DNA of 64,000 bases, from the NCBI GenBank assembly GCA_964016885.1, contig OZ024740.1, positions 277,636,001 through 277,700,000 on the forward strand, given 5' to 3'. Positions within the stretch are counted from its first letter, which is position 1, and every line of letters starts with the position of its first letter. Shown here piece by piece: positions 1-58,322 of the stretch. The stretch is from Eledone cirrhosa. Taxonomy: Eukaryota. The position numbers and the translations under genes are program-made. The notes beneath the pieces are model-generated. The model made no database searches. It worked only from the letters and a program-made list of their open reading frames with translations, and was not told where the DNA came from.

Positions 1-1930
1 ACTGTAGAGCATGCTGAGGCTTGGTGTGCCCCTACGTTTTGTTGAATGGTTGTCGACATGGTCTGAGAACCGCACCGCGAGAGTCCGTCTTAACTCAACG
101 ACAGGTAGGAGCAGAGTGTTAAAAGAAGGCCTTCCACAAGGGGCCGTCCTGCCTCCAATCCTCTTCACGGTCTACATAAACAGACTCCTAGATGGATTTG
201 AAGAATCTACGCACGTCAACGCCTACGCAGATGATCTGGCGATCGTGTGTAACGGAAGGAATAAAGATGAAGTAGCCGTCCTACTACAAAAAGAGGTTGA
301 CAAGGTAGCTGAATGGAGCAAGGAAGCTAGACAGCAGCTCAATATTAATAAATGCGAGACAGCATTTTTCTGTCTTGATGGAGCAGAGGCAAAGTGGCAG
401 CCCAATATCGCAATAGCCGGGAAGCAACTTTCTTGCAACCCTTTCCCAAAATTCATGGGCATCACATACGATCGGCAGTTAACCTTTGGGGAACATGTCG
501 AGAAGGTATGTCGAACTATCCAATCGAGAACGAACCTGCTAAAGACTGTAGCAGGAACGACGTGGGCCTGGAAGAAGGCGGGTCTTCGCCAAATCGACAG
601 TGCCGTACAACGAAGCATCACAGAATATGCGGCTCCGGGGTGGACACCCTGGTTGTCTGACACCAACATCGGCAAGCTCGAAAGAGTACAACTAGACGTG
701 GATCGAGCCATCACCTGCCAAGTCAGAACTCCCCCCCCCCCGACCGAAACTGTGCTAGCAGAATCCCAGTTACCTACGCTCTCCTCCAGATTCTCGACAT
801 TTGCACTGCTTAAAGCTGATCACTGGGCAAACCTACCAAAGACGGACAAATGGCACAAAGTTTTCAATACCAGCTACCGAAAAAGGCTCAAAAAGACAGA
901 CTGGAGAGGTACCCAATCCCAGCACCTGGCACGACTACATCTTATCCCTTCGAGACCCCTACCAAAGAACCCAGAACCTCCCCTATGGCTACCGCACCCT
1001 CCATACATGTAATCTACACCAATACCCCAAAGTCCCAAAACGCAAACCAACAACTGACGGCAGCCTTAGACACCATATCAACCCTCGCCCCGTCAGATGT
1101 TCAAATCTACACCGATGGGTCTACAAAAGAAGGTACTACTGATGGCAGAGATGGTATGGTCATCATGAAAGATGGTGCGCTTGTCCACGAGTGGCATACA
1201 GCAACAGGTGCTAGAAGTAGCTCCTTTCACTCAGAAAAAGCTGCGCTGAGAGAAGCCATCCACTGGTTACAAACCAATAACGCAAAATGGACTTCGGCGA
1301 CCATCATCTGCGACTGTAAATCTCTAGTTCAGGCAGTCGACAACTCTGCCCCCAAAGATTCCACTATAACAGAACTCCAGGCAGCAGTTAACAACCTCGG
1401 AGAAAATAAAAACCTAACTGTTGTATGGGTCCCTGGTCACTGTAATCTATAAGGGAATGAACTAGCAGACAAACTCGCAAAGCAGGGCTCCTCACTTCCA
1501 CAACCTAACACCCCTGCTGACCATGCCACGAGACAAGTTCTCAACAAAAGTGAGTGTAGACCAGCACCCTTCACCCACGTGAAGAAAACCTTCAGAAAAC
1601 CGCCGGACGAGAGAGTCGAAAAGAGAGTCGAAGGCTGATCTCACCCACCTTATCTGCTTCAGAAGTGGGCACCTTCCAGCACTTCGCAGGTGGCAGCTAC
1701 TGACTGACAAATGTGAAGACAGCACTTGCAGACTCTGCGGTGAAGAGAAGGAGGAGTCTGAACACCTCTGGCTACGATCCCCTGCATTGGCGATCGAGTG
1801 ATACCATCACCAACTCGGTACATCCTTAGAGGAATTAGTCCGTCTCCCAGTCGCATCTCTAGCGCTTCTGAAGAGGATCCTCAGGCGCCTGAGGTGAATC
1901 AACAACAACAACACAACAGCAGCAGCAACA
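1..1930 (+). mobile_element. 3' part of a non-LTR retrotransposon (I/Ingi-like): RT, RNase H and zinc finger, disrupted, with a (CAA/CAG)n tail
   Basis: ORF 11-1012 has RT motifs GLPQGAVLPP and YADD. ORF 850-1452 has RNase H motifs IYTDGS, ICDCKS and WVPGH, continuing past a TAA as GNELADKLAK. Downstream CRLCGEEKEESEHLW ends in LRRLR* near 1896, followed by caacaacaac repeats. Confidence 0.9.
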
Positions 1931-5006: not shown

Positions 5007-5840
5007 TTAAAACAATGAAATAAATAATCAAGTCATTAGAGATATACTTCACTGCTTTACGATCGTTTCTAGATGGTGATAATACATTGTATCTATACTC
5101 AGTTATGTAAGTTTACAAACTATCAGATAGAGAGAATATTTACTGACATGCATATCACCAGCTGTTTTCAAAAGCAATAATAATTTTATTCAATAATAAT
5201 TTTACTCAGAATTAGTAGCATGTTAGTATCATGTCCATATTTGGAGGTAGTTGAAGAACTAATGAATCAAATTGTTTTTTTCATATGGTGTTAAGATGAA
5301 AGGTAATACACTTTAAGTTGAGGTCATGACCCTTTGAAAGGAATGGTTGAAGGGTGTTAGTAGAAATGGCATAAAAATCTATTAGGAAAGAAGGGGATTG
5401 TCAAACTGATAGTTGAATGTATCTTGTATAGTGAATTTAAAAGGAATGTCAAAATAAATGGTGATTAGTGTTGTATTGAGTTTTAAGGTGAATATAAATT
5501 AATGTTATGGCTAGGAAAGATAGTATATTAAAAGATGAAAATTATAAGATAATGAGATATAGTAATGCCATAATATACAACTTAACCAACACAATATAGT
5601 ACGGTGTGGTAAATTGCACTCAGTATAATATAACATATTATACGCACTAAAATATTACTAAGTATGTTTATGCATAAACAATCAAACTCAGATAAGTAGA
5701 TGTTGGCATAGTTAAAACACATACATTTCATAGTCTACAAAGTGCATATATCCACACCACATATAGAGAGAGGTACAGTTATATTGATATCTAACCAAAA
5801 TATACATACGTGCAAATAGATGCAAACCTAAATACACATG
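5004..5840 (-). mobile_element. Probable PLE 3' UTR/terminal repeat with a decayed hammerhead-like motif
   Basis: Minus strand reads tagat...atcta GAAA CGATCG TA (palindromic stem III). It shares ctgatagtttgtaa...ctagaaacgatcg with the PLE terminus at ~11528-11606 and abuts (TA)n. Confidence 0.45.
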
Positions 5841-5941
5841 TACACACATGCATATAATCATATATATACATATCCATACATATCTATATCCACACATACA
5901 CATCTATATATACATATACATATACATATATACATATACAT

Positions 5942-5996
<55 letters not shown>

Positions 5997-6067
5997 CATA
6001 CATACATACCTATATACATGTACATACATATACACACACACATACATATATACATACACATATACAC

Positions 6068-6114
<47 letters not shown>

Positions 6115-6119
<5 letters not shown>

Positions 6120-7834
6120 TGAGAACAGAACACAACCTTTCGTGCCCAGGAAACCGAAGATCAATATGAAGGACCACAAGAGGAATTTTGAGATTGACCT
6201 GCCAGTTAGATTGATCGCACCTTCAAAATCGGACCTGGGCAAATTAAGCAAAAACATTCTTGACAGGGTGATACTGCAAATTAAGAACTTGGATTATGTA
6301 TCTAACCTGAGCTTGTGGAAGGGAACTGGAGAGGTTGTTGAGTGGTTTAGGCAAATTAAATATGACAATAATAATAGGTTTATTCAACTTGATATAGCTA
6401 ACTATTATTCTTCTATTACCCCTAGTCTACTAAATAAGGCACTAAATTACGCATTCAAACATACGGACCTAACTAGCAAAGAAATGCATATTATATTATC
6501 GGCTAGGAAAACTTTGATAGAATTTGACGACAAATTATGGACCAGAGCAGATAGAGATAGCAATTTTGACATAACTATGGGATCTTCCGACTCAGCTCAA
6601 GTAACTGACCTTGTGGGCTTATTTTTAATCAATTCGCTACATAGGAAAATACCTGGTACTACCGGAGGTTTATATAGGGATGACATGCTTTTACTTATTA
6701 ATAATAATAACCCTGAACTAAATAGAAAATGTAAACAAATTACAAAATTTTTTAATTACTTTAACCTTAAAATAGAAATTGAGAACAACCATAGAATAGT
6801 CAATTTCCTAGATATAACATTAAATCTCAACACATGTCTCCACTATCCTTTTCACAAGTTGAATGAGAACTTAAACTATGTCAACTTTAACTCTAACCAC
6901 CCCAGATCTGTCAAAAACACTATAGTAAACTCAGTCCAAAAACGTATCTCTAGGATCTCGTCGAATAGAAGGATTTTTGACGAAAAGGCCCAATACTATA
7001 ATGATGCACTAGCTAGGGCAGGGTATGCTGATAAGATTGTGTACATAGATAATGATAAACAAACTAAACAAAGTAACAACTTTTTTAATTATGGCAACAA
7101 CATTAACAACTATAATAGAAAGCATTACAATAATTCCAAAGGACAAAAAAGAAATAGAACTAGGAACATATTTTGGTTTGCCCCCCCCTTTCTCACTAAA
7201 CATTAAAACCCACATCGCTAAATTATTTTTCAAAGCTCTTGATAATCGCTTCCCTAGAACACATAGGTACCACTCAATCTTCAATAGGCATACAATTAAA
7301 TTAACCTACTCATCCACCAAAAATTTAGCACAAAATATTAATAGAATAAATAATAGGAACTTAAAACCTACTGATAATAGCATAAATAATATACAAGTTA
7401 ACAAATGTAACTGTAGAGATAGATCTAAATGTCCGTTAAATAACAACTGCTTAGTCAAAAATATAGTATACAATTGTAATGTTAATACTGACTCTAATTC
7501 TTTTAACTACGTCGGTTCCACATCGACGGAATTTAAACTTCGCTATAATAACCACAAGAATTCTTTCACAGATCCAAATAAAAAATCTTCAACGACACTA
7601 TCAGGTGTACTCTGACAACTTAAGCTAGATAACGTTAGATATTCGACGGCTTGGAATATAGTCTCAAGAGGGATTCCTTTTAATTCATCCTCTGAGACAT
7701 GTGACCTCTGCGCAGAGGAGATATTCTTTATACTAAAATCTAAAAATTCCCTTAACCTACGGACAAATTTATTCAGTTGTTGCAAACATAGATTAAACTC
7801 AACGTTTAAATATAAATTTAAATTTAAAATGTAG
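6115..7834 (+). pseudogene. PLE RT-GIY-YIG polyprotein, disrupted
   Basis: Frameshift in the C-run at ~7181-7188 (WFAPPF), in-frame TGA at 7613-7615, natural end TAG at 7834. The N-terminal part of predicted ORF 5848-7206 is microsatellite. Confidence 0.88.
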
Positions 7835-7929
7835 TATATTTAGTTTGATTTATATTTATATGAGAACTAGCCGATAAATCTTTTGATTCCTAAATCTTTG
7901 ATTCCCTCTTTTTACTCTTTTTATTGTTT

Positions 7930-8600
7930 ATTTTATTTTATTTATTTTTTTTTATTTTTATTTTTATTTTTATTTTTATTTTTATTTTTATTTTTATTTT
8001 TATTTTTATTTTTATTTTTATTTTTATCTAAACATTCCTCATGAAAAATTAAGCTACCCTAAAAGCCGATGCTCCAAATTTTCTGAATTAACCTTACACT
8101 TGATAAACTTATACATTAAATATAGGAACATATGTAGACATTATTGGACATCTTAATCTTTTTTGCGATATTCCTTGCTAGATGTGATTTGATAGATAAT
8201 TTTTGGCTTTGTCTTGTAGTGAACTTGGCAATATATTGTCAATTAACCTTGAAGGGTTGTTCTTTGTGGTTTATTTTTATTTTCATTTTTATTTTTATTT
8301 TTATTTTTATTTTTATTTTTATTTTTATTTTTATTTTTATTTTTATTTTTATTCTTTTAGTATTGTAGTATTCTATAATATTTTTATATTTTTATTTTTT
8401 ATTTTATTTTATTTTTATTTTTATTTTTATTTTTAATTTTTATATGTAAATTTTTTTATATGTAAATTTTTATTTTTAATTATCTTTATTTATTTTTAAT
8501 ATTTTTATTTTTAATATTTTTAATATTTTTATATGTAAAGTTTTAATACGTAATATTTTTAATACATAGTATTTTTAATATGCAATATTTTTATTATGTA
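7930..8600. repeat. (TTTTTA)n and degenerate T-rich repeats within the PLE 3' UTR
   Basis: Directly visible. Confidence 0.85.
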
Positions 8601-9480
8601 ATATTCTTTCGTAATATTCTTTTTTAGTTTTCTATTCTATATTTTTATATTTTTATATATTTTTACTTATTATCATTATTATTGTTATCTCTGCTTATAA
8701 TATAATATATATTTTCGATTAGTATATTGAAATCTGCTCTCTATTTCTGCTTGATAGATAATCTTGTAGAGTAATCGCAAGAATAATAATATGCTCAAAT
8801 TTTTATACCACATTGAGAATGTTTTCCGGGAACTTTGAATTTGCGGAGTGAATCAGTTGGATTCACATAGACATATGAATTTTTTTTTAAAACTAAACAT
8901 AAGATAATGAATTTTCACGCATTGTGAATACTTGTTTCATTCAGAAATACTGATATTTACAATATAGTGTAAGTTTTATAAATACTAATACATTAAAACA
9001 TAGGGTTTTCTACGCCTCGAATATGTCTGGCTATTTTTTTAATTTTTCTCTCTCTATATCTCTCTATATCTCTCTATATATCTCCCTTACATTAATACTT
9101 GAGCTAAATAAATAAATAAATAAATAAATAAATGCATCATTGATACACTTACTCAAAATGACCTCCCACTACCTAATTTTTCTATATCTATATTTATATA
9201 TGTATCTATCTCTATTTCCTCTCTCTCTCTATATATATATATATCTCTTTCGGTCTCTTTACATGAAGCTCTTCGCTTTATCTATTTTTCCATCTCTCTA
9301 TTTTGTCCCATGCATTTCTTCTTTTTCTTCTTTTTCTTCCTTTTCTTCGTTTTGTCTTTCTTTCTTTCTTATTTCCCTCTTTTCTCTCTCTCTTTCTTTC
9401 TCTCTGTATTTTCACTGCTAGAGTGAACCTCTTCAAATGAAGTTGATGTTTATTACGGTATGTCGAATATATTTATCTAT

Positions 9481-9587
9481 AAAACTGTTTATATTGTATT
9501 TTGTCTTATGAAGGCATAGCATATTGTTAATATGATATCCCCGAAATATATATAATGAAATAAATATGGTTTTATAAATATAGTTTT
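9481..9587 (+). ncRNA. Type I hammerhead ribozyme in the PLE terminal repeat, core mutated (CTTATGA)
   Basis: Essentially identical to the motif at 41086-41192 except CTGATGA>CTTATGA at 9505-9511. Confidence 0.65.
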
Positions 9588-9690
9588 CCATTTATTTAAT
9601 ATTGTAAATATACTCCAAGTATTTGTCGAGTGCTTTTATATCAGTTATAAATATTTACTAGTTGTAACCCAACAATTTTAAATATAACTT

Positions 9691-9750
<60 letters not shown>

Positions 9751-11252: not shown

Positions 11253-11329
<77 letters not shown>

Positions 11330-14300
11330 AAGCAAATTATAAACGTAAAACATGTAAGTATGTTTTTGAAACGGTGCGCGAGTTTGAAATTAGAAATTAG
11401 AAATTATAAGCTTTCACCGTATTTTAGACTAAAGAAATTTCTAGCCTGATAGTGGGGTTTATAAATTAATAAAAATAATGAATAAAAACAAAGAAACAGT
11501 TCTTTATATTAAAAAATTCCTAATTTAGCGATCGTTTCTAGGATATATATGTATGTGTTGGTATGTATATCATATAGATCTATGTAACAATTTTACAAAC
11601 TATCAGGGGGAATATACATACCTACACATATATATGCTGTCTTCAGAAATAATGATATTTGTTTATTGAAAAAAACCAACAAAGATTTAATATAATAGGT
11701 CTGTTTGGGAACAGGTTTTGAATTGACCAATAGAAAAGTAGTAAGTAGCAAGTTCATAGAATAGTAGTAGTAGAAATTTAATTTAGGGGTAGAGGAATGC
11801 AGACTTCAGTTTTGAATAGAAAGTGAATTTTGAATGAAAAGATTACTTTGGGATGAAAATAGGTCAAGCCGGTGAAAGGTACACGAAAATTTGATGTTAT
11901 TAAAGAATAATGCTAATGTTAAAATCTAAGGAGAATAAAAATTTACGATAAATGTGTTAGTGAAAAATATCAATCTTATTTAAAACATAAGGAATTTAGA
12001 TCTATAAAAAGAAATTAAATTAATTTAATTGATAGGTATATTTATAGGGATAAATTTATATTAATTCATATAGATATGATAAATAAGAGTTAGATGTTAT
12101 TAAAGAATTATGTTAAAAACGAAGGAAAAATTTTTTTTGGGGGGAGGGGGGGGGGGGCGGGGATAAATGTATTAGTGAGAAATAACAAACTTATATAGAT
12201 TACAAGGAATTTAGATTCATAACAGGAAATTAAAATAGTTTATATTTATACTTATTGGTATAAATTTTAGGAAAAGATAGCTGTAAAAGGGAAATACAAT
12301 TATGCAGTTCTTAGTAGTAGAATATTAATTATAGGTTAACTAATTTTAAAAAATTAATTATAATAATTTGTAAAATATAAGTGTATATTAATTAGGTTTA
12401 TAATATTTGAAAGTTTTTCTAATTCTATGATTGCACGAAATAATTAATTTTGTCGCTTATTTAATAGGATATCCTTAGATTTCATTATTTCAAAAATTTC
12501 CTAGGAACATAATCTACATTCATATCTATTATTTTGATAAGGGGTGGCCCTTTTGAGCACACTCCAGATCAGGTTATAGTCGATATTCTTTTTTCTATAA
12601 TTATTAATTATTTCAGCTAAGGATGTTGTATTAGCTAATGCGGCATTTTTAAAACTGTGTTTGTGGGTATTAAATCTTACTTTTAATTGGTTAGAAGTAG
12701 CTCCTATATATGAATAAGTTGAGTCCTTAGTGTTAATTTTACATTTATATACTATGTTATTAATAAGGCAATTTCCTTTTAAAGGGCAATTTGCTTTGTT
12801 TCTACAGTTACAACCTTTCGTGAATGTTATGTCAGGGGAGTTAGTCAAATTAGGTGTGGAATTTTCTCGACTTGTTGTATGTGAATGAGATGGTGGTTTG
12901 CTGTGGTTTATTTTAGTATTATGGTTAGTTTGATGTGTTGGTGGTATATTGATGGTTTTTTTTACATTGTAGGCACTTATATTTTGTTGTATATTTTTAG
13001 TTGTGGAGTAGGAGAATTTGACCGTTGATCTATTTAAAATTTGATGCTATTTATGGTTTGGCGGGAAGTTTTTCTCTAGGATAGTAAAACATTTTTTAGG
13101 TATATTATCTTTAATTTGTAGATTAAATGGAGCATTATACCAAGTAACTCGTCTATTACGGTTTCGATGTTGTTTTTTTTAATTTGTATACGATGTATCC
13201 TGATGTTTACTAAGAGAATTAGTATTAGTGATTTTATTACACATATGTTTAGTTAGATTCACTGATTTAGGTGTTTTAGCCTGATTATTAGGAATTTTGT
13301 TAGTAATGTTATTAACATATATTGGAATATTAGGATGAATGGTTTTTTGAAAGTTATTATATTGTATACTAGCAGTAAAGCCCGGCGTTGCTCGGGGTCG
13401 CTCAGTAGCTGTGTTAAAGTTACAATGTTAAGTTTCTTTTTTGGCTTAAAGTCTGTCTGCACGACTGTCTGTCTGCACGCCTAACGAAATTTACAGATAC
13501 ATATATTTTAAATAAACTTATATAATTTTTGCTTTTTTTTACGAAATATTTGCTTGTTTTACGTAGTCTTTAAATAGACTTGTTTTCAAGTAAAAATATT
13601 GTTTTAAAAGGCTTTTAAATGGAAATGAAGCAAAACGGAAGCTTAGTGTTCGAACTGATGAATTTTGCAGGTCAAAATTTTGCTGGCTCGACAACTGTTC
13701 ATGTATTGTGTTAATGTCATTTTAAACGCTGAGAAAGCCAGCGTAATTTTTTTTAATTTTTGCACGCAGAAAATGTAAACAGAACGTAAGACGCTCAATG
13801 TAAACAGAACAAAGGGAAATAACTCGTCACTTACGCTCAAAAATCGATACATTAGATTCGATTTCGTCACATAGGGTGGGTCAATTTGAAATATTTTTTT
13901 CCGATGTCTTCGCTAGGACTCAATGTACAAGTATAGCAATTTCGGTGCAATTCCGTCAGAGATTCTAAGAGGAGATGTGTGCCAAAAATCGATAGACAGA
14001 CAGACAACCACAGCTTTATATATATAGATTAGAAAAGGTGGAGAAATTAAGTTTTAAGTTGGTATTTTGGGGTATAGTGTGAGTGGCATTTAGGTGTGTA
14101 TATTTCATTTCGTGTTTGTTGGTAATATTGGGTTGTATGTATATAGTATTATTGGTACAAGGTATATATACTAATTTGTTTTTGTGGCCGCTTCTAGCTA
14201 AAGCTTCGTTATAAAAGGTCGTATTTTTATCGAATACATCGTGGTTAGATGAAAGGTTAGAAATTCTGAGTGAGATATTATATGCTAGGTTTTTAAGGAT

Positions 14301-15861
14301 ATATCTAGGGTGATTAGATTGTGAGTGTATGTAATGTAAGTTTTGGTTAGGTTTATGGTAAGGTTGGTAGATATCCGTAGATAAGTCTAAAGTTATATCA
14401 AGGAAATTAACTACTTTACTGGTGTTTTCAAATGTAATAGTGAGACTATAATAGTCTTTGAGGAAAGTTCTAAGTTTTTTATTTTTTTCAATTTCTGATA
14501 GGCTAAGGTTAGTGGAAAGAAGAAGACAGTCATCACGATATAAACCACCTTTAAGGTGGGGAAAAGAAGCATTTATGTTAAATAGAAGAAAGAGGCCCAC
14601 AAGATAGGTAATTTGGGCAGAATCACTAGAGCCCATAGTAATGTCGAATAGATTACTATATGTATTTCTGGTCCAGTATTCCTTCTGAAATTCCAGTAGT
14701 ATTTTTCTAGCGTGCGTGATAATATTAATGTCATCCATAGTTAAGTTTGATCTATTTTTGGCAAATATCAAGGCTTTGTTCAGGAGTATGGGCGATATAG
14801 AGGGATAATAAGCATCTATATCGAATTGTATAAATGAAACAGATGATTTATTTCTAATATTAGTAAACCAGTTAATTACCTGGGATGTATTTTCCCAGAG
14901 TGGTAAATTACCATGTTTTCTTAATAGTGGGATGACTCTATCTAAAAAATCTTTACTAATGATGCCAATGTCAGATTTGGAAGGACATATAAGTCTTATA
15001 GAAGGCTTAGAGTTAAAATTAGATTTGTGATCTTTCAGGTTAAAATGTGTTTTTTTCAGTGCCAAATGTTCAGTTATATCTTCAATATTGAGTTTATTTA
15101 CTATGTTGTGTGTTTTGTTGTTGATATTGGTAAGTGCCGCATTATTTGTTTTTTTATAATTTTTCCTGAGTTCTTTATAAATGAACTCATTGTAATTATC
15201 AATATCCATGTGGTACAGATTTCCAGTTTTGTCAGAGTTGACATGGATTTTGTTAGATTGTTTTTAGATCCAATAGGGTAGAATCAAGATCCTTTTGAAA
15301 ATTAGATTTATATTTCTTAAATTTGAGGTGTTTGATTAAGTTAAAAAGGTCTTTCTCGAAGTTTTCAAGTAAGGAGTTGTGTGGTGGGTTCTTATATGTA
15401 GTGAAATCATATAAATATTTCTTATCAGTACATTTAGTTTTTTTATCAAAGTGGTAGGCCCCCCATCTGACCCTTTTGATGAATTGGTTGGTTTTTTTGT
15501 ATCATAAGAAGTAAGAATTCATCCGGGTATTGGTATATTCTTTAAAGAAGCTCCCAATATTGTTTTTCCATTGTAATATGGATAATGGACAAGAAAAAGA
15601 GCTCAACTCTATATATAGGGAGTTATAAAAGTATATATATATATAAAAATATGAATACCTTTATAAAATTAGGAGCAAAGTATGTAGATAAATCTACCAA
15701 AATATACGGTAGTGTCCAATCCGTATGAAGAACTCAATGTAATCCAAATATCATGAAAAGAGATGTATTCAAAATTTTTTCGAGGAAAAACACAGGAAAA
15801 CAAAGTCAAGATAAATTAATAAAAATAATGAATAAAAACAAAGAAACAGCTCCTTATATGA

Positions 15862-15862: not shown

Positions 15863-15889
<27 letters not shown>

Positions 15890-15896
<7 letters not shown>

Positions 15897-15985
15897 CTAC
15901 TGTACGTCTGTATACATATATGTATGTACGTATACATACTTATATTTAAGTAACAGCCGAATTTCGTTTCATTTTTTCCGTTTAT
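15890..15985 (-). repeat. Diverged dispersed fragment of the ~530-bp hammerhead repeat unit
   Basis: Reverse complement matches the unit start (aaaaaatgaaacgaaatt...gtatacgtacatacatatatgtatacagacgtacagtag). Confidence 0.75.
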
Positions 15986-22572: not shown

Positions 22573-25500
22573 TTACAACACCTCGTTGTAAACGATGTTT
22601 CTTGTTTTTCCCAGGCGTGCTAATGCGAAAAGACTTTCCCTGCTGCCCACTCTAGAGCACTCAACGTACAATTGTCCGTGGGAGCAACACGGTTCTTCCA
22701 GAAGAAGTCCGGCTACAGAAAGAGTCTGGCCCTGGGACATGTTGATGGACATAGCAAAACTGACCCGAAGTGGAAATTGGAGTCTTCAGAAGGTGAACGG
22801 AATTTCTGCTCCCGAGGGAATGAGACGAATTCTCGGAATGAAAACATCATCACCTTTTCCGCATCCAGAAAGGATTGTTGCCTCGATTACATGTGCAATC
22901 AATTTTTTTACAGCCAGCCGTGTCCCGTTGTACAGTCTTGGTGGTTCCAAATTCCTCAGCAGCATTACAGGGGTGCCAACTTTAAGGAGAAGCATGTGAG
23001 GCGGTAGTCCTGGGGGCTCCAAAGAATTGAGGAACTCCGGCGGAACGTTCACCACTTCATTGGGATCTGGCATCGTGTCAACAGATTTGTAAGTGTGAAG
23101 AACACCAGGAAGGGAGTGCAGTAGTTGGTCGTTGGTTTTGTTAACAGCAGCGTTTTTTGGAGCTAGCACTGCTCTTCAACACAACCATGCGTGGTTCTGG
23201 TAATTGTCTCTCAAATCTGGAAACACTTTCTCTTTCAGCTCCCCCGCAGAATTAACTGAGGTTGAAAATGGCCACACTTCCAACTCTCCTGCAGCATCCA
23301 GAGGTATTTTGCCGTCGCCAAGTTTCAAAATGTCCTGTGCAAATTATGCGGACGTTTGGTCGCCGTGTAATTGAACTCTCATGTTGGTTGTAAGAAGCAG
23401 TGTCCTGACATGGCGCCACAGAGGAGAGGACTTTAAGCATGCTTGTACCTCATCTGCTCCTGTGCCTTTGGGAATGACGGGAAGAGTCTGCCTGAAGTCA
23501 CCTGAAAGCAGAAGCGTAACACATCCCATGGGAGCCTGGCAGCCTCAGATGTCCTTTAGAGCTCTGTTTAATGCGTCCAGAGCTCCCTTATGGGCCTAGG
23601 TTCAGTCATCCCACACAATGAGCTGACATCGTTTTAGGACTTGGCCCTGGTCGGAGGTCGTGCTGATGCTGCAAGTAGGCGTTTCTGACGTTGTTAAATT
23701 GAGAGGCAATTTAAAACTGGAGTGTGCGGTCCTGCCACCAGGCAACAACGTGGCAGCAATTCCAGAAGTGGCAACAGCAACCGCAATGTCCTTGTGCATC
23801 CTGACCTTTGCAAGGAGGAGTCTCGTTAAAAATGTTTTGCCCGTCCCCGCAGGAGCATCCAGAAAGAACATACCTCCTTTTCTGTGGCGCACATGGTCGG
23901 CAACAATGGTGTAAGCATGACGTTGGTCCGGAAGAAGTTGTGGTTCAGTTTCAAGGACGTACTTGGTAAGAGCATCGACGTCGTAGGACGTTTCTCGGAG
24001 AAGAGCTGTAGGAAGTACGTTTGACCCTGTACGGATTGTTTGGGCAGACCATATGAGGGCAAATAATTTCCGCCGAGTGCTGCAACTCTATCCTCTATGT
24101 CAACGCTAGATTGAAGACCACGTCGCTGGTACCTTCCATCTCAGGGTATTGCACTTGCGCCTGACGTTTGTAGTCATCGGATAAGTCATCTTTATACTTG
24201 AGCCATAAAGAGATAGGATTACTCAGTTCGCCAGTTTGCAGCAGTACTGCAAATAGAGATCGTAGGCGCATAGGCGATTGGGATGCAATAGCTTTGAATA
24301 AAGTGGCATCCCACTGCGCACCGTCTTCTAGCAGGCCGCGCTTGAAGCAAGCCTCCCTGTAAGTGCTGCACACAGAACCGTCGGCAGTTCTAAGGTCATG
24401 AAAGGACAGGGGTCCTCTAACCTCATGTAGCAGAAGACGGAGGTAGAAGCACTCATGCTGGTTCGGGTGCACTGTGTATACTCTCCCTAGGCAACTGTCA
24501 AACTTTATACCAGGATGTCCATCAACAGGCTGACCTACCTTTCTGCGAAACCATTGTTTTTTATTCCACGTGTAATAGGACGACACCTGAGGATACAGCA
24601 GGGTTTGAGCAAATGAATCGGCCTGACAAAGTTTGAAGAATGTAGTGAGGGTGGTTTCCCCTGGTTCCGCCACCATTTGAACAGCATTAACGTCAGTGAA
24701 GTACACCCTTTGACCGTTCTCCAGGTGGACTGCGAGCTGTTCAATTGCAGGGTGCCTTTGGTGTATAGGGAAGCCGAAAATACGCCAGAAAGCCTCGTTG
24801 CTGCTGATGTAACGGCCAACTTGGTATTGCGTGACCTCATCACGGCTGTTGTCCTGTTGAAGACCGAACATAGCAGCGTCTGAACCTTTATTCACATATT
24901 TACATATGTACTTGATTGACTTGACGGAATTACAGAACTCGACATTGATGTGAGCACCGAAGGTCTTGGAAAGAAATGGGCAGTATGGCACTATCCATCT
25001 GTTGTCGACCTCGTGCTGTCCAACTGTTGCTGTAAAACCACCGTCCCCGGGTTGGCGTCGCCTGTACAGTGGGTATCCGTCAACGCCAGTCTGGGTTTCT
25101 TGGAGGAACTTTCGGGGAAATCTTTTTCTGCAGACATTGTCGTTCAAGCAAGGTGAGCTTAAATTGAAGCCCCGCCCACATGAACCATGGACCATGTTTG
25201 TCTTCACTATGTCATAGAGGTCTTGTCTATAGACGGATCGGGGAAACTCTGCGGAGATGATGCTGTCAATTGAAGATATTTTTCTTGACAGCCAAATGAG
25301 GATGTGGGCGTGCGGTAGGCCCCTCTTCTGCCACTCTACGGTGTACATGTCGCACTTTACTGGGCCAAAGACTTGGCCTCTCTTGATGAGCTCCATGAGA
25401 TTGATAAGCTTCAGCCGAAAGACTCCGCCAGGAGGTCATGCCTGTCTTTTGCCTGTTGCTCTTGGAACAGTTCTGCCCCGATCTCCTTCCACTTTGGGTG

Positions 25501-26942
25501 GCAAGTGAATGTGATGAACAGATCGGGCCTGCTGTAATGCCGTACGTAGGTCATAGCATCCTGCGTTCTCTCGTGCATGTAGCGCGGACTTCCGGTGAAG
25601 GTGGAGTGCAGAATGCAGACTTTTCCTACGCTGCTGGGAGCTGCATCATTGTTGATGGCATCTCGGAGATGGATGTAGCTCTCGGACCGCAGTTGCCTTT
25701 GATGTGACCGTATGAAACACAGTCTCTCCGATTCCATTTTTGCGCACATATCAACGGCGAATTGCTGAAGTAGGTCTCTTGACTGGTGCAGGTGATTGAA
25801 GAAATCGTGGCGAACCATGAAGGGGTAGGAGTAGAAATCCATGCATGAAACTTGTTTTTTGACGGAGTGTTGAGTGTTTACTGGATTATGCTGGTGAATT
25901 CCGTACTGATAGCCCTCTTCACCATTTACAAAGAGAAGTGGATACTGGAGGGCATCGTAAGACCTATGTGTTTCGCTGATTCGCTGAAGAGTGCTATCTC
26001 GACACTTGAGGATTATGCTGACCCCCATGCATAAGTACAGCGATTTCATTGCATGCAGGATAATTATACCGACCCGGATGCTCCTCAGATAGCATTTTCG
26101 AAGCATCAATTACCACATTAAAATTGGCTGTGGTATCTGCTTCCAAGGCATACATGAAGCTAATGACATAGCTGTTTTTTGTGTGCGGTATGTCTTGCAG
26201 TTTCCTTATAAGCTCGACATTGGTACCGGGTTAAATGGAATTCCTCATGGCTACCTACTCGTTGACATTACCAACAAAGTACAGCTGAAGAAATTGAGGT
26301 GCTTGATAGGCGGCAGGTTGGAGGGATCCGAATCTATCGTACACCTGACCGAACCTTAAATGTGGGCATAAATCCGTCTTCCTTGAGAATGTTCGCCCCG
26401 AAAGATGTCATTTGGAAAGCACAGTTATACCTCCAGATGTAAGTCAGGATATGCCATGACTCCGCAGTACTGCCTGAATATAGGAGCTTCAACCGTTGTG
26501 GTGGATCTTCCAGGGGACGTAATTTTACTTTTCCATTTGCGCAACACAAGCCATGTCTTTCTCCGGGCCACTTTTTTGCATTGCAGAAAGAGCACGTCTG
26601 GATGGCCACTGTAATTAAAGTCGGTTGTACTCGAATGCTTTCAAGGACCATCGTGAGCTACACGGCCTTGAAATACCCTGTCCAAAGGCCCTTCGTTGAG
26701 CATTACATTGTAGTCGAATGTCTCGTTCTTGCGAGGTCTGTGTAGCTCGGACAGTAGCAGTATTCGGTTTGGCGAATGGTTCGTTGATTGTCTGTCTTAA
26801 GTGCTCTTCTGGTGGCAGTACGTTTAGCATCTTGCGACCGTCGAATAGCAGATTCCACTGACGATTCGTTTGCCCGCCCTGTTCGTGTTGTTGCTGCTTT
26901 CGCAGTTTTTCGGCCAATGGAGTATCTCTTCCTTCGAGGCAT
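22573..26942 (-). pseudogene. Helitron Rep/helicase (zinc finger, HUH Rep, PIF1-like helicase), multiply frameshifted
   Basis: Motifs in order: CSFCNAKKW..CCANGKV, PDLFITFTCHPKW, VEWQKRGLPHAHIL (HUH), KYICKYVNKG (Y2), FLDAPAGTGKT (Walker A), GDFRQTLPVI, LRNL..PRLYNGTR, and terminal TRNIVYNEVL*. Confidence 0.95.
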
Positions 26943-34965: not shown

Positions 34966-35402
34966 AGAAGTTTAAATATATTTTAATTGCAACGGAATGA
35001 ATGGTAATTTAGAGTCTTTTATCTAATAGTGAATGCGCTACACATTACAACAGTAGACATTTAACATGTCAAGCTGCTCTTCTGTTATTATCGAACTAAT
35101 TAGAATAATGAAACTAAAAATTACAAATGGTCTCTAATAATATAATTACTAGTAGTTATGTTGAGGAAAAAATATATGTGATTTAAAATAATAATAGTAA
35201 TAATAACAATAATAATTCATTGGAATGAAAGTATTGGGTAATAATTCAATTAATCTGTAGTAAAATTTGCCGAAGAGTTTATGCATTACAAAAATGTCAG
35301 AGAGTGTCTTCAATTTAGTAATTAAGTTAGCGAGGACTCTCTGGTCAGAGATAAAGTATTGTTAAATTTCTGAAGAATCATTCGAACTTAACCTTATAGA
35401 AT

Positions 35403-35905
35403 AATTGTTTCTACATTTGGCACAGGGCCAGCAATTTTAATGGAAGGGAAAATTCGATTAAATCGATCCCAATGCGTAATTGGTATTTCATTTTACCGAC
35501 TGCGTAAGGATGAAAGGCAAAGTTACCCTCGGCGGGATTTGAACTCAACATTATAAAATAATGATTTCTACTTTAGGCACAAGGCCAGTAATTTGAAGTG
35601 GAGGGGAAAGTCGATTAAATCTACCCAGTGCAATACTGGTAGTTTATTTATCGATCACGTAAGGATGAAAGGCAAAGCTAACCTCGGCGAGATTTGCTTT
35701 CAACCTTATACAATAATTGTTTCTACTTTTGGCACAAGGCCAGCAATTATCCCAGTGTATTACTGGTACTTTATTTTATCGACCCTGGAAGGATGAAAGG
35801 CAAAGTTAACCTCGGCGGGATTTGAACTCAGACCATAAAGGGCCATAACTCTTTGCTGCAAAGAATGGCGTCCGGCCCTCTACCGATACTACCAATCCAC
35901 CGCCC
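35403..35905 (-). mobile_element. Cluster of three stacked SINE family A copies
   Basis: Copies at ~35403-35548, ~35563-35698 and ~35718-35905. The last is flanked by caaccttata(c/t)aataat repeats. Confidence 0.85.
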
Positions 35906-40679: not shown

Positions 40680-40751
<72 letters not shown>

Positions 40752-40855
40752 AAGTTATATTTAAAAATTGTTGGGTTACAACTAGTAAATATTTATAACT
40801 GATATAAAAGCACTCGACAAATATTTGGAGTATATTTACAATATTAAATAAATGG

Positions 40856-40962
40856 AAAACTATATTTATAAAACCATATTTATTTCATTATATATATTTC
40901 GGGGATATCATATTAACAACATGCTATGCCTTCATCAGACAAAATACAATATAAACAGTTTT
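40856..40962 (-). ncRNA. Type I hammerhead ribozyme candidate
   Basis: Reverse complement of 41086-41192 with intact CTGATGA and GAAA. Confidence 0.7.
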
Positions 40963-41085
40963 ATAGATAAATATATTCGACATACCGTAATAAACATCGA
41001 CTTCATTTGAAGAGGTTTACGCTAGCAGTAAACCTCTTCAAATGAAGTCGATGTTTATTACGGTATGTCGAATATATTTATCTAT

Positions 41086-41192
41086 AAAACTGTTTATATT
41101 GTATTTTGTCTGATGAAGGCATAGCATATTGTTAATATGATATCCCCGAAATATATATAATGAAATAAATATGGTTTTATAAATATAGTTTT
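41086..41192 (+). ncRNA. Type I hammerhead ribozyme candidate
   Basis: Stem I TATTTTGT/ATGAAATA with extensions, CTGATGA at 41110-41116, imperfect stem II (catatt/aatatg), GAAA at 41148-41151, palindromic stem III ATATATAT and AUA cleavage triplet. Confidence 0.7.
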
Positions 41193-41205
41193 CCATTTAT
41201 TTAAT

Positions 41206-41277
<72 letters not shown>

Positions 41278-45212: not shown

Positions 45213-45613
45213 AGAAGAAGTTTACGAAATGGAAAACAGTGTTTAGTACTATTATTATAGAAAGCCATATCTTGTGTATAAACATATAAGACAGAAATTT
45301 GCAAACGGTGGTGTAAAAAGGTAACATTATATGCATTTAAAAAAAGAAAAAGTCGTTTTCAAACGATGGTTACAGTATAGAGAACGTTCAATTTTGCTGT
45401 TTAAAAGTTTGTTTACCGACGACGTTAAAATACAGTATATCTCTAAATTGCATAACTTGCAGAATCGATGATTTTATATATATATATATATATATATATA
45501 AGTTGAAAAAAATGAAAACGAAATTTCATTTCTCACTCTTAGTATGGCACTTACTTAAATGTAAGTATGTATGTATACGTACATACATATATGTATACAG
45601 ACGTACAGTAGCA

Positions 45614-45693
<80 letters not shown>

Positions 45694-45866
45694 TATACAC
45701 ATATGCATACAGGTACACATACATATATGCACGCATCAGTTTAGCCGGAGTTTATTATAACGCCGGCCGCTTTGTTCGTTTGTTTGTCAACAAAGCGAAC
45801 AGCCTGAATTTATGCCATACGGTGTTAAGGCAACCACGTCACCTTTTTGTTCAACACTGACACAGG

Positions 45867-45911
45867 AACGATGTACTAGTTTCAAGCTTGTTAGCTATCA
45901 TCAGCACCGTT
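45867..45911 (-). ncRNA. Type I hammerhead ribozyme (unit 1)
   Basis: Minus strand reads aacggtg CTGATGA tagctaacaagctt GAAA ctag TA catcgtt. Confidence 0.85.
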
Positions 45912-46146
45912 TACCCATCTGCCAGATAGTTGAACGTTCGAAAGTATATACTTTCCTTATGAAAATTAACGGCTGAGCAGCCTAATTTGCATATTGAGTG
46001 AGTTAAATCGGTCAGGCATACCGAAAACGATAAGTTGAAAAAAAATGAAAACGAAATTTCATTTCTCACTCTTAGTATGGCACTTACTTAAATGTAAGTA
46101 TGTATGTATACGTACATACATATATGTATACAGACGTACAGTAGCA

Positions 46147-46212
<66 letters not shown>

Positions 46213-46385
46213 TATACACATATGCATACAGGTACACATACATATATGCACGCATCAGTTTAGCCGGAGTTTATTATAACGCCGGCCGCTTTGTTCGTTT
46301 GTTTGTCAACAAAGCGAACAGCCTGAATTTATGCCATACGGTGTTAAGGCAACCACGTCACCTTTTTGTTCAACACTGACACAGG

Positions 46386-46430
46386 AACGATGTACTAGTT
46401 TCAAGCTTGTTAGCTATCATCAGCACCGTT
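46386..46430 (-). ncRNA. Type I hammerhead ribozyme (unit 2)
   Basis: Same motif as unit 1. Confidence 0.85.
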
Positions 46431-46664
46431 TACCCATCTGCCAGATAGTTGAACGTTCGAAAGTATATACTTTCCTTATGAAAATTAACGGCTGAGCAGC
46501 CTAATTTGCATATTGAGTGAGTTAAATCGGTCAGGCATACCGAAAACGATAAGTTGAAAAAAATGAAAACGAAATTTCATTTCTCACTCTTAGTATGGCA
46601 CTTACTTAAATGTAAGTATGTATGTATACGTACATACATATGTGTATACAGACGTACAGTAGCA

Positions 46665-46744
<80 letters not shown>

Positions 46745-46917
46745 TATACACATATGCATACAGGTACACATACATATATGCACGCATCAGTTTAGCCGGA
46801 GTTTATTATAACGCCGGCCGCTTTGTTCGTTTGTTTGTCAACAAAGCGAACAGCCTGAATTTATGCCATACGGTGTTAAGGCAACCACGTCACCTTTTTG
46901 TTCAACACTGACACAGG

Positions 46918-46962
46918 AACGATGTACTAGTTTCAAGCTTGTTAGCTATCATCAGCACCGTT
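46918..46962 (-). ncRNA. Type I hammerhead ribozyme (unit 3)
   Basis: Same motif as unit 1. Confidence 0.85.
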
Positions 46963-47196
46963 TACCCATCTGCCAGATAGTTGAACGTTCGAAAGTATAT
47001 ACTTTCCTTATGAAAATTAACGGCTGAGCAGCCTAATTTGCATATTGAGTGAGTTAAATCGGTCAGGCATACCGAAAACGATAAGTTGAAAAAAATGAAA
47101 ACGAAATTTCATTTCTCACTCTTAGTATGGCACTTACTTAAATGTAAGTATGTATGTATACGTACATACATATGTGTATACAGACGTACAGTAGCA

Positions 47197-47282
<86 letters not shown>

Positions 47283-47455
47283 TATACACATATGCATACA
47301 GGTACACATACATATATGCACGCATCAGTTTAGCCGGAGTTTATTATAACGCCGGCCGCTTTGTTCGTTTGTTTGTCAACAAAGCGAACAGCCTGAATTT
47401 ATGCCATACGGTGTTAAGGCAACCACGTCACCTTTTTGTTCAACACTGACACAGG

Positions 47456-47500
47456 AACGATGTACTAGTTTCAAGCTTGTTAGCTATCATCAGCACCGTT
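47456..47500 (-). ncRNA. Type I hammerhead ribozyme (unit 4)
   Basis: Same motif as unit 1. Confidence 0.85.
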
Positions 47501-47734
47501 TACCCATCTGCCAGATAGTTGAACGTTCGAAAGTATATACTTTCCTTATGAAAATTAACGGCTGAGCAGCCTAATTTGCATATTGAGTGAGTTAAATCGG
47601 TCAGGCATACCGAAAACGATAAGTTGAAAAAAATGAAAACGAAATTTCATTTCTCACTCTTAGTATGGCACTTACTTAAATGTAAGTATGTATGTATACG
47701 TACATACATATATGTATACAGACGTACAGTAGCA

Positions 47735-47810
<76 letters not shown>

Positions 47811-48058
47811 TATACACATATGCATACAGGTACACATACATATATGCACGCATCAGTTTAGCCGGAGTTTATTATAACGCCGGCCGCTTTGTTCGTTTGT
47901 TTGTCAACAAAGCGAACAGCCTGAATTTATGCCAACTTATCGTTTTCGGTATGCCTGACCGATTTAACTCACTCAATATGCAAATTAGGCTGCTCAGCCG
48001 TTAATTTTCATAAGGAAAGTATATACTTTCGAACGTTCAACTATCTGGCAGATGGGTA

Positions 48059-48103
48059 AACGGTGCTGATGATAGCTAACAAGCTTGAAACTAGTACATC
48101 GTT
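48059..48103 (+). ncRNA. Type I hammerhead ribozyme (inverted copy)
   Basis: CTGATGA at 48066-48072, GAAA at 48087-48090, palindromic ACTAGT stem III and GUA site. Stem I is 7 bp and extends via ctggca/tgtcag and gttcaac/gttgaac. Confidence 0.85.
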
Positions 48104-48276
48104 CCTGTGTCAGTGTTGAACAAAAAGGTGACGTGGTTGCCTTAACACCGTATGGCATAAATTCAGGCTGTTCGCTTTGTTGACAAACAAACGAACAAAG
48201 CGGCCGGCGTTATAATAAACTCCGGCTAAACTGATGCGTGCATATATGTATGTGTACCTGTATGCATATGTGTATA

Positions 48277-48358
<82 letters not shown>

Positions 48359-48411
48359 TGCTACTGTACGTCTGTATACATATATGTATGTACGTATACA
48401 TACATACTTAC

Positions 48412-48479
<68 letters not shown>

Positions 48480-51020: not shown

Positions 51021-51560
<540 letters not shown>

Positions 51561-57372: not shown

Positions 57373-58322
57373 GAATATGATTCTATTAGTAGAAATGGGG
57401 GAGGGAGTTATGTGTGTATGGGTGTTATGTGTGTATGTGTGTGTGTGGGGGGGGAGTATTTATTCGTATTTGTTCTGTTGTATTCTCAGTGGAAAGGTAA
57501 AATGGGAAGACTTGGAATTTGGGTGTCTTATTACTTGCGCATATGTCTAGATGTGCACAAACCCACAACAAAAATGTGGTCGCTCTAATTGTGGAACCTA
57601 CACTCACCTCATTGAAGGTAACACGTATACATTTCAATCAGGACAACATTTTGCTGTAAAAATTCACTTCACTTGCTCATCAAAAAATCTACTTTATACC
57701 ATTAAACGTAAAGGATGCAATGAAGATTATATAGGACAAACTAAACTCACACTCAGAAACAGAATGACAGTTCATCGCCAACAATTACGAGATCCAACCA
57801 CGGCACAGATACCACTAAGTGCACATCTAGACATATGCGCAGGTAATAAGACACCCAAATTCCAAGTCTTCCCATTTTACCTTTGCGCTAACAATACAAC
57901 AGAACAAATACGAATCAATAAGGAAAATATGTTTATTCAAAAGTATAGACCAGCATTAAATATAATTTAATATATATTATGTCAACACCATAACATTCTA
58001 ACCATCAAAACAGACACATGCATACACACACACACACTTAACACCTACTTTAGAAAATAAAAACTAAATAAACCGTAACATACGTTAATACTCTATCACC
58101 TTAACATGCTACCCACACCCCCCACACACACATAACTCCGTCCCCATTTCTACTAACGGAATCATTTCCCTACACACACAAAAAAAATATATATATATAT
58201 ATTCTCTCCATCTTAACATGCTAACCATACTCCCACACACATATACACACAAACACATAACACCCACACACACACACACACACACAACTCCCTCCCCTAT
58301 TTCTAATAATAGAATCACATTC

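What the first reader, a model, noticed from the sequence alone, without database searches (positions are those of the whole stretch)
45499..48416. Candidate octopod retrozyme: young tandem array of ~530-bp hammerhead units
Seen: four full and one partial near-identical non-coding units (519-538 bp, with length varying almost only in an internal (TA)n). Each full unit carries on the minus strand aacggtg-CUGAUGA-uagcuaacaagcuu-GAAA-cuag-UA^caucguu. Stem I extends into a long bulged rod (cuggca/ugucag, guucaac/guugaac), and the unit has further hairpins (cgctttgtt/aacaaagcg, gaaagtatatactttc, ggctg/cagcc). Known: animal non-LTR retrozymes are tandem type I hammerhead repeats that self-cleave into monomers, can circularise, and are thought to use PLE enzymes. 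Inference: minus-strand transcription would give ~530-nt monomers or circles. The monomer is longer than the animal retrozymes I recall and contains a microsatellite. I know of no octopod description, but I cannot verify novelty.
Basis: partly seen in the sequence, partly recalled or inferred. Interest (0 to 1): 0.9.

Follow-up and report, generated by a model that had tools for sequence, protein, structure and literature searches.

The report
Two-armed hammerhead retrozyme insertion in octopod
This is one of thousands of insertions of a protein-free repeat that carries a hammerhead ribozyme motif and sits in TA microsatellites as two back-to-back arms ending at two fixed sites, a pattern that likely records a Penelope-type enzyme copying one RNA, probably a circle, from both sides of the cut; self-cutting and circles are untested.

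Summary
The units and the hammerhead are real, but the locus is not a simple tandem array. A left arm of 4.6 units (45500-47934) is joined head-to-head to an inverted 0.9-unit arm with a fifth hammerhead (47933-48416), between two (TA)n tracts. The exact 36-nt core occurs 10,412 times in the genome. Arms stop at two fixed sites about 60 nt apart (A, B; 142 of 161 arms). In 38 of 40 classed head-to-head pairs, one arm ends at A and the other at B. 5' ends are scattered, with no pile-up at the cleavage site. The two arms of a locus share one variant, and one haplotype exists only as 7 copies at one locus. Coding Penelope-like elements (PLEs) in this genome follow the same end rule. Verdict: a new family of known animal non-LTR retrozymes, likely mobilised by a PLE through two primings on one RNA, probably circular. 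The partner PLE was not found; cleavage, expression and circles are untested. I found no cephalopod retrozyme in ten literature searches. This scan noted the same pattern earlier on other DNA.

The parts
45475..45499 (.). (TA)n target tract, left flank
45500..47934 (-). Left arm, 4.6 tandem units; 3' end at fixed site B (monomer position about 360, numbered from the predicted cut); 5' end at position 57
45500..45560 (-). The 'tail' between sites A and B, present at the outer end of the left arm only; predicted to hold two hairpins
45867..45911 (-). Type I hammerhead motif 1; predicted cut 45874/45873
46386..46430 (-). Hammerhead motif 2; predicted cut 46393/46392
46918..46962 (-). Hammerhead motif 3; predicted cut 46925/46924
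47456..47500 (-). Hammerhead motif 4; predicted cut 47463/47462
45617..45697 (.). Internal (TA)n of unit 1 (one per unit, 28-38 repeats); a part of the unit, not a target site
47933..47934 (.). Head-to-head junction, 2-nt microhomology shared by both arms
47933..48416 (+). Inverted right arm, 0.9 unit; 3' end at fixed site A (position about 301-304); 5' end at position 356
48059..48103 (+). Hammerhead motif 5; predicted cut after 48096
48416..48475 (.). (TA)n target tract, right flank

Best explanation
This is one insertion of an abundant non-coding hammerhead repeat family (a non-LTR retrozyme) that lies in (TA)n tracts as two head-to-head arms ending at two fixed sites, and it was likely made by a Penelope-like (PLE) reverse transcriptase/endonuclease priming twice on one RNA, probably a circular monomer. 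Steps. (1) Read-through transcription of a tandem arm gives multimeric RNA (inferred; no promoter or RNA seen). (2) Pairs of hammerheads cut it to monomers of about 460-540 nt through a dimeric stem III (inferred from the palindromic stem III and published cases). (3) The monomer is ligated to a circle; the long stem I would hold its ends together (inferred). (4) A PLE enzyme cuts both strands of a (TA)n tract and starts one cDNA at site A and one at site B (ends, target and A/B pairing shown; enzyme inferred). (5) Both cDNAs run across the cleavage site for a variable length, often more than one round (shown). (6) They are joined 5'-to-5' by microhomology (shown). Later DNA-level slippage and unit duplication modify the arrays (shown in a few).
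For: Copy number: 10,412 exact cores, control 0. Ends: 78 B, 64 A and 19 other of 161 arms; (TA)n follows directly in 128 of the 142 A/B ends. Pairing: of 54 adjacent head-to-head pairs, 40 had both ends classed and 38 were A+B (p 7e-10). The two A/A calls did not hold: L067's left arm ends in the internal microsatellite and L143's left end is B by motif. A stricter motif caller gave 22 of 22 mixed. Coding PLEs here do the same: 6 of 6 two-ended Neptune-like loci and 3 of 3 Hydra-type loci. A purified Anolis PLE cuts and extends both strands and starts at two internal RNA sites that bound the 'tail' (PMC11167929). 5' ends: 2 of 164 at the cleavage site against 2.3 expected. One template: in 34 of 34 comparable loci the arms are closer to each other than the median other locus (mean 1.5% against 5.3%; best match in 20). 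The L033 haplotype occurs 7 times in 3 Gb, all at that locus and in both arms. Arrays of 15 and 20 units differ by 0 and 1 substitution in the complex part. Ribozyme constraint: around the core, common variants fall only at N7, loop II and one stem I pair that stays paired as G-U, A-U or U-G.
Against: There is no direct evidence of cleavage, expression or circles. The partner was not identified: no pLTR homology in the PLE loci examined, and tail similarity to three PLE families is at chance (p 0.83, 0.48, 0.69). Some arrays hold variants shared by a subset of units, which a pure monomer circle does not give: window units 3-4; L047 with a period-2 pair; L155 with six variants shared by one unit of each arm. 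Core conservation alone is not significant (0 of 12 core against 55 of 316 positions polymorphic, p 0.096). In 46 close sequences no pair changed on both sides, and the structure did not beat the shuffles; the 5 two-sided pairs of 84 appear only with the sister subfamily and count few events. The catalytic fold is 2.2 kcal/mol above the local minimum. In the Anolis PLE, cleavage was not needed and uncleaved RNA was the main substrate. In the Xenopus preprint 8 of 9 predicted dimers did not cleave. The source of the L033 haplotype could be missing from this assembly. 14 of 54 pairs had an unclassed end.
Confidence: 0.65

Rival explanations
1. Same PLE-driven double priming, but the template is an uncleaved linear multimeric transcript of an existing array; long arrays come from long source arrays plus later unequal crossing-over or gene conversion, and the hammerhead is incidental to insertion.
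For: Uncleaved RNA was the dominant substrate for the Anolis PLE. Subsets of units share variants in the window, L047 and L155. A linear multimer also predicts scattered 5' ends that cross the cut site.
Against: A genome-unique haplotype is fixed in all 7 units of both arms with no source array in the assembly. Most arms are short (median 0.99 unit; 18 of 147 above two units), yet arms reach 13.7 units. Loci sharing a rare variant differ in their unit length. The core is kept across subfamilies 76-100% alike.
Confidence: 0.25
2. The units are only pseudo-LTR remnants of a coding PLE, truncated and locally duplicated.
For: Same end rule and target as PLE pLTRs. Xenopus retrozymes are related to pLTRs, so an old pLTR origin is plausible.
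Against: Units join seamlessly head-to-tail through the tail with no ORF between them. No PLE examined carries the unit as its terminal repeat; the few hits were whole arrays or short arms beside PLEs. PLE families were only sampled, not all seen.
Confidence: 0.06
3. An ordinary satellite spread at the DNA level, or fold-back assembly artefacts at TA tracts.
For: TA tracts are unstable, and some local unit duplication is seen.
Against: Arms end at two different fixed sites, are unequal in length and differ by up to 7.6% in old loci. There are thousands of dispersed ends: 1,667 exact A ends and 4,276 forward-strand B ends. Short-read contigs of organism A show the same ends (loose ends).
Confidence: 0.04

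Closest known systems
Metazoan non-LTR retrozymes (Cervera and de la Pena 2020, PMC7229834: coral, mussel, axolotl; read passages and parts 2-4 of 6, supplement not readable)
   Same: Tandem non-coding units with one type I hammerhead each, GC under 50%, thousands of copies, predicted highly paired monomer. One-pair stem III with palindromic loop as in HHR_Amex1, and a U-U mismatch at the base of stem II as in HHR_Amex2. Copying of a circle into tandem cDNA by a PLE was proposed there.
   Different: Cleavage and circles were shown there and are untested here. The main text has no occurrence of 'inverted', 'cephalopod' or 'microsatellite'. Here the insertions show fixed RT start sites, A/B arm pairing, (TA)n targeting and an internal microsatellite.
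Vertebrate retrozymes as PLE derivatives (Li, Clavereau, Pollet 2026, bioRxiv 10.64898/2026.07.22.740005; read parts 1-3 of 5 and passages)
   Same: Co-occurrence with PLEs; size within their 51-972 bp range.
   Different: Their link is pLTR homology and co-occurrence, and they favour local amplification. 'Tail' and 'head-to-head' do not occur in the text. Here no pLTR homology was found, but the insertion anatomy is PLE-type.
PLE insertion structure: Hydra, Naiad and Neptune clades (Craig et al. 2021, PMC8557442; passages and section 11) and Poseidon from Anolis (Frangieh et al. 2024, PMC11167929; parts 1-2 of 4)
   Same: Partial tandems, an inverted 5'-truncated copy, a tail often at one end only, (TA)n preference, two internal RT start sites, and cutting and extension of both strands.
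   Different: Those elements code for RT and endonuclease, and their tail is 30-40 bp (about 60 here). Non-autonomous head-to-tail Chlamys derivatives are described, but they resemble their partners at the 3' end. The Anolis study saw no difference in start site between strands; near-strict one-A-one-B pairing with multi-unit arms on both sides is not stated in what I read.
pDo500 hammerhead satellite of Dolichopoda crickets (PMC2837043; abstract only)
   Same: A hammerhead in each repeat, with a conserved core and stems.
   Different: Described as satellite DNA. A unit of about 500 bp is inferred from the name (recalled).

Membership tests
Non-LTR retrozyme | Tandem units, each with a complete type I hammerhead motif | tested here: met
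   Four tandem motifs plus one inverted; Rfam support is weak (HH9, E 0.44)
Non-LTR retrozyme | Non-coding, GC under 50%, no LTR organisation | tested here: met
   GC 34%; longest ATG frame in the doubled unit 91 aa, across the TA tract; no tRNA in the window. PBS and PPT were not searched specifically
Non-LTR retrozyme | Many dispersed loci, from monomers to multimers | tested here: met
   10,412 cores; arms from under 1 to 13.7 units
Non-LTR retrozyme | Ribozyme structure under constraint | tested here: inconclusive
   Variants fall at tolerated sites and 5 pairs change on both sides, but p 0.096 for the core and no excess over shuffles
Non-LTR retrozyme | Self-cleavage of the RNA | not testable with these tools
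   Needs in vitro transcription of dimers
Non-LTR retrozyme | Expression as linear and circular monomers | not testable with these tools
   Needs RNA data or Northern blot and RNase R
PLE-type insertion | Inverted 5'-truncated copy joined head-to-head | tested here: met
   54 adjacent head-to-head pairs against 1 tail-to-tail
PLE-type insertion | Two fixed 3' ends with the tail on one side | tested here: met
   142 of 161 arms at A or B; 38 of 40 pairs mixed
PLE-type insertion | (TA)n or AT-rich target | tested here: met
   128 of 142 A/B ends abut (TA)n
Autonomous PLE or its pLTR | RT plus GIY-YIG ORF flanked by this repeat | tested here: not met
   No such element among the sampled PLE loci; sampling incomplete

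The most novel reading that the evidence does not exclude
Each two-armed locus is the fossil of one reaction in which a dimeric Penelope-type enzyme primes both strands of a cut (TA)n tract on a single circular ribozyme RNA, one primer at site A and one at site B, and both reverse transcriptases roll around the circle. This would be genomic proof of rolling-circle reverse transcription of a natural circRNA, and a general explanation of the PLE tail and inverted pLTR.
Probability: 0.45. Interest if true: 0.75.

Novelty: new member of a known kind. Interest (0 to 1): 0.52.

Why it matters
How animal retrozyme circles get back into genomes, and why PLE insertions carry an inverted copy with a tail on one side, are both stated as open in the papers read. 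This family gives thousands of short, young insertions with defined start sites, in a genome with several young intact PLE families. A direct reconstitution is therefore feasible: a 0.5-kb circle, a (TA)n target and one of three candidate proteins. It also extends retrozymes to octopods as far as ten searches of the held library show (subscription papers and supplements not covered). The class itself is known, which caps the interest.

Tried and rejected
RNA evidence: no RNA holder was listed, and the laid runs were contigs or a Hi-C run, so expression was not tested. Run X11 shows a different variant mix from X1 but is not on record as RNA and was not used.

Horizontal transfer: 16 coded organisms hold the words. 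Of 8 runs laid, the other organisms gave no contigs (X4) or low-depth mixtures of this family's variants (X5, X7, X6, X8). Raw reads of organism F (X23, 12.8 million reads, another sample) gave 0 although its contig run X8 holds the stretch. Cross-contamination is the likelier reading, so transfer is not claimed.

Partner search: Hydra-type about 830 aa, Hydra-type 738 aa, Neptune-like 775 aa and 48 GIY-YIG loci gave no pLTR homology. An apparent likeness between site B and the Neptune-like end failed against shuffles. The 'CCGTTT' ends proved to be a sister retrozyme subfamily, not a PLE. Clade names rest on motifs: DKT and CxCX5C for Hydra; Neptune-like from the linker, recalled; no tree was built.

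Other: Rfam miRNA hits are TA-repeat noise. Target-site duplications cannot be read in (TA)n. The bacterial promoter scan was irrelevant and empty. A possible intron suggested by GTAAGT was not tested. Reverse-strand counts are inflated by overlaps and were not used. Lunse et al. 2017 was not held; I saw only its title in a reference list.

Full report
Observation. The window holds four full units and a partial one from 45500 to 47934, of 532, 519, 532 and 538 bp. They differ almost only in an internal (TA)n. Each full unit has the type I hammerhead motif on the minus strand, with the first predicted cut at 45874/45873. Both outer ends abut (TA)n. Rfam gives no gathering-level hit and only a weak HH9 match at all five sites (E 0.44). 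The identification therefore rests on the motif and on comparison.

Structure. The 96-nt hammerhead region folds at z -3.09. The monomer folded as a circle is 70% paired, and its non-repetitive part folds at z -6.6, better than its antisense; the catalytic fold lies 2.2 kcal/mol above the minimum. Stem III is one pair plus a palindromic loop, the type reported to cut as a dimer and to be spared in monomeric circles (PMC4209133, passages). Among 46 close copies, 97.9% of cells pair but no pair changes on both sides and shuffles do as well. With a sister subfamily added (20 sequences), 5 of 84 pairs change on both sides, one of them in stem I; these are few independent events. In 56 regions not selected for the core, common variants near the core fall at N7, loop II and that stem I pair; 0 of 12 core against 55 of 316 positions are polymorphic, p 0.096.

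Family. The exact 36-nt core occurs 10,412 times and the 25 nt after the cut 15,100 times. I examined the window, 9 best-hit arrays (13 stretches; two were empty flanks and two were stitched), 51 stretches covering the first 100 core hits on C1, and 36 stretches from hits absent from that list (L066 dropped as overlapping L155). Numbering the monomer from the cut, 3' ends fall at site A (about 301-304) in 64 arms, at site B (about 360-363) in 78, and elsewhere in 19 of 161; 128 of the 142 abut (TA)n. 5' ends are scattered: 2 of 164 at the cut against 2.3 expected. A cleaved linear monomer is therefore not the usual template.

Pairing rule. Of 54 adjacent head-to-head pairs, 14 had an unclassed end. 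Of the other 40, 38 are one A and one B (for two stitched loci I set the far end by hand from the neighbouring stretch). The two A/A calls did not survive inspection. A strict motif caller found 22 of 22 mixed pairs in 96 regions, two of them possibly separate insertions. One tail-to-tail adjacency was seen. Genome-wide there are 1,667 exact A ends of one subtype and 4,276 forward-strand B ends.

One template. Of 41 two-armed loci, 34 had enough overlap. In all 34 the arms are closer to each other than the median other locus (1.5% against 5.3%), and they are the best match in 20. Arrays of 15 and 20 units carry 0 and 1 substitution in the complex part, and locus-specific microsatellite patterns run through both arms. 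The L033 haplotype occurs exactly 7 times in the genome, 4 and 3 in the two arms of one locus. The L047 variant occurs 46 times at about 20 places, with unit length differing between arrays. This fits a single-unit bottleneck and rolling-circle copying. Against it, window units 3 and 4, two L047 units and several L155 units share variants with only some neighbours, so DNA-level duplication or conversion also acts, or some templates are multimeric.

Enzyme source. The genome holds young intact PLEs: a 738-aa Hydra-type family with many identical copies, an about 830-aa Hydra-type family and a 775-aa Neptune-like family. Two of them show two fixed ends in (TA)n, one per arm, in 6 of 6 and 3 of 3 two-ended loci. 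None shares its terminal repeat with the unit, so the partner is unknown. Published PLE features match: inverted truncated copy, one-sided tail and (TA)n bias (PMC8557442); both-strand cutting and two internal start sites in vitro (PMC11167929). That study found cleavage unnecessary, which keeps the linear rival alive.

Comparison and novelty. The element works like, and meets every sequence-level criterion of, the animal non-LTR retrozymes (PMC7229834). The two biochemical criteria are untested. A review states that these repeats show no motif that points to their partner (PMC7761336, passages), and the 2026 preprint links them to PLEs by homology and co-occurrence. Ten searches found no cephalopod retrozyme, and a 2026 Octopus vulgaris repeat annotation has no occurrence of ribozyme or retrozyme (PMC13282606, passages). 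Supplements I could not read may list one. Hemocyanin supports an octopod host (a second copy was unresolved between the squid and octopus chains). Earlier notes of this scan describe the same pattern in this and other genomes; my reading was stated before I saw them, and they are not evidence.

Verdict. A new family of a known class, with unusually clear insertion anatomy. My estimates are PLE-type mobilisation about 0.9 and the full model with a circular template 0.65; interest 0.52.

Noticed in passing
window 5788-9700 (+): Copy of a very young Hydra-type PLE family (738-aa intact ORFs, many identical at protein level) with a minimal hammerhead upstream of the ORF and two ends about 89 nt apart; probably active now.
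   Followed up: partly
window 40750-41210: Head-to-head insertion of only the terminal repeat of that family (hammerheads at 40938 minus and 41110 plus), one arm ending at each of its two sites, between (TA)n tracts.
   Followed up: partly
window 11326-15860 (-): Copy of a second Hydra-type family (intact relatives about 830 aa; 45,812 first-look candidates), interrupted at about 13372-14030. A hammerhead-like motif with an altered core appears to lie antisense to its ORF.
   Followed up: partly
window 15863-15985 (+); L247-L262: Short B-ended arm of a sister retrozyme subfamily, about 80% alike, with a U-G pair in stem I and a reshaped hairpin after the cut site; it shows the same two-armed anatomy.
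   Followed up: yes
window 57551-57970 (+); L229-L240: Neptune-like PLE family (775-aa intact ORFs) whose hammerhead-like motif keeps GAAA, a palindromic stem III and the cut triplet but lacks a recognisable CUGAUGA in the copies printed; a possible ribozyme variant or dead motif in a young family.
   Followed up: partly
window 49931 (-), 50155 (+), 50376 (-): Further minimal hammerhead motifs of other families, the first two facing head-to-head; degenerate motifs also at 51137 and 51469.
   Followed up: no
L155 (G000:C1:43085500-43094500): Old array of 9.4 + 2 units in which one left-arm unit and one right-arm unit share six private substitutions; conversion between inverted arms or a mixed template.
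   Followed up: partly
window 22786-26109 (-); 8-1452 (+); 35380-35850: Helitron-like helicase remains, a LINE-like RT/RNase H fragment, and a 155-bp repeat resembling an octopus SINE (labels recalled from motifs, not tested).
   Followed up: no
runs X5-X8: Low-depth mixtures of this repeat's variants appear in contig sets of other coded organisms, and are absent from raw reads of one of them; high-copy repeats leaking between libraries could mimic horizontal transfer.
   Followed up: partly
G000:C1:173.7-173.9 Mb, C26:21.9-22.0 Mb, C27:61-67 kb: Several hemocyanin gene copies: seven-unit series on C1, two inverted copies on C26 with a degenerate extra unit, and divergent units on C27.
   Followed up: no
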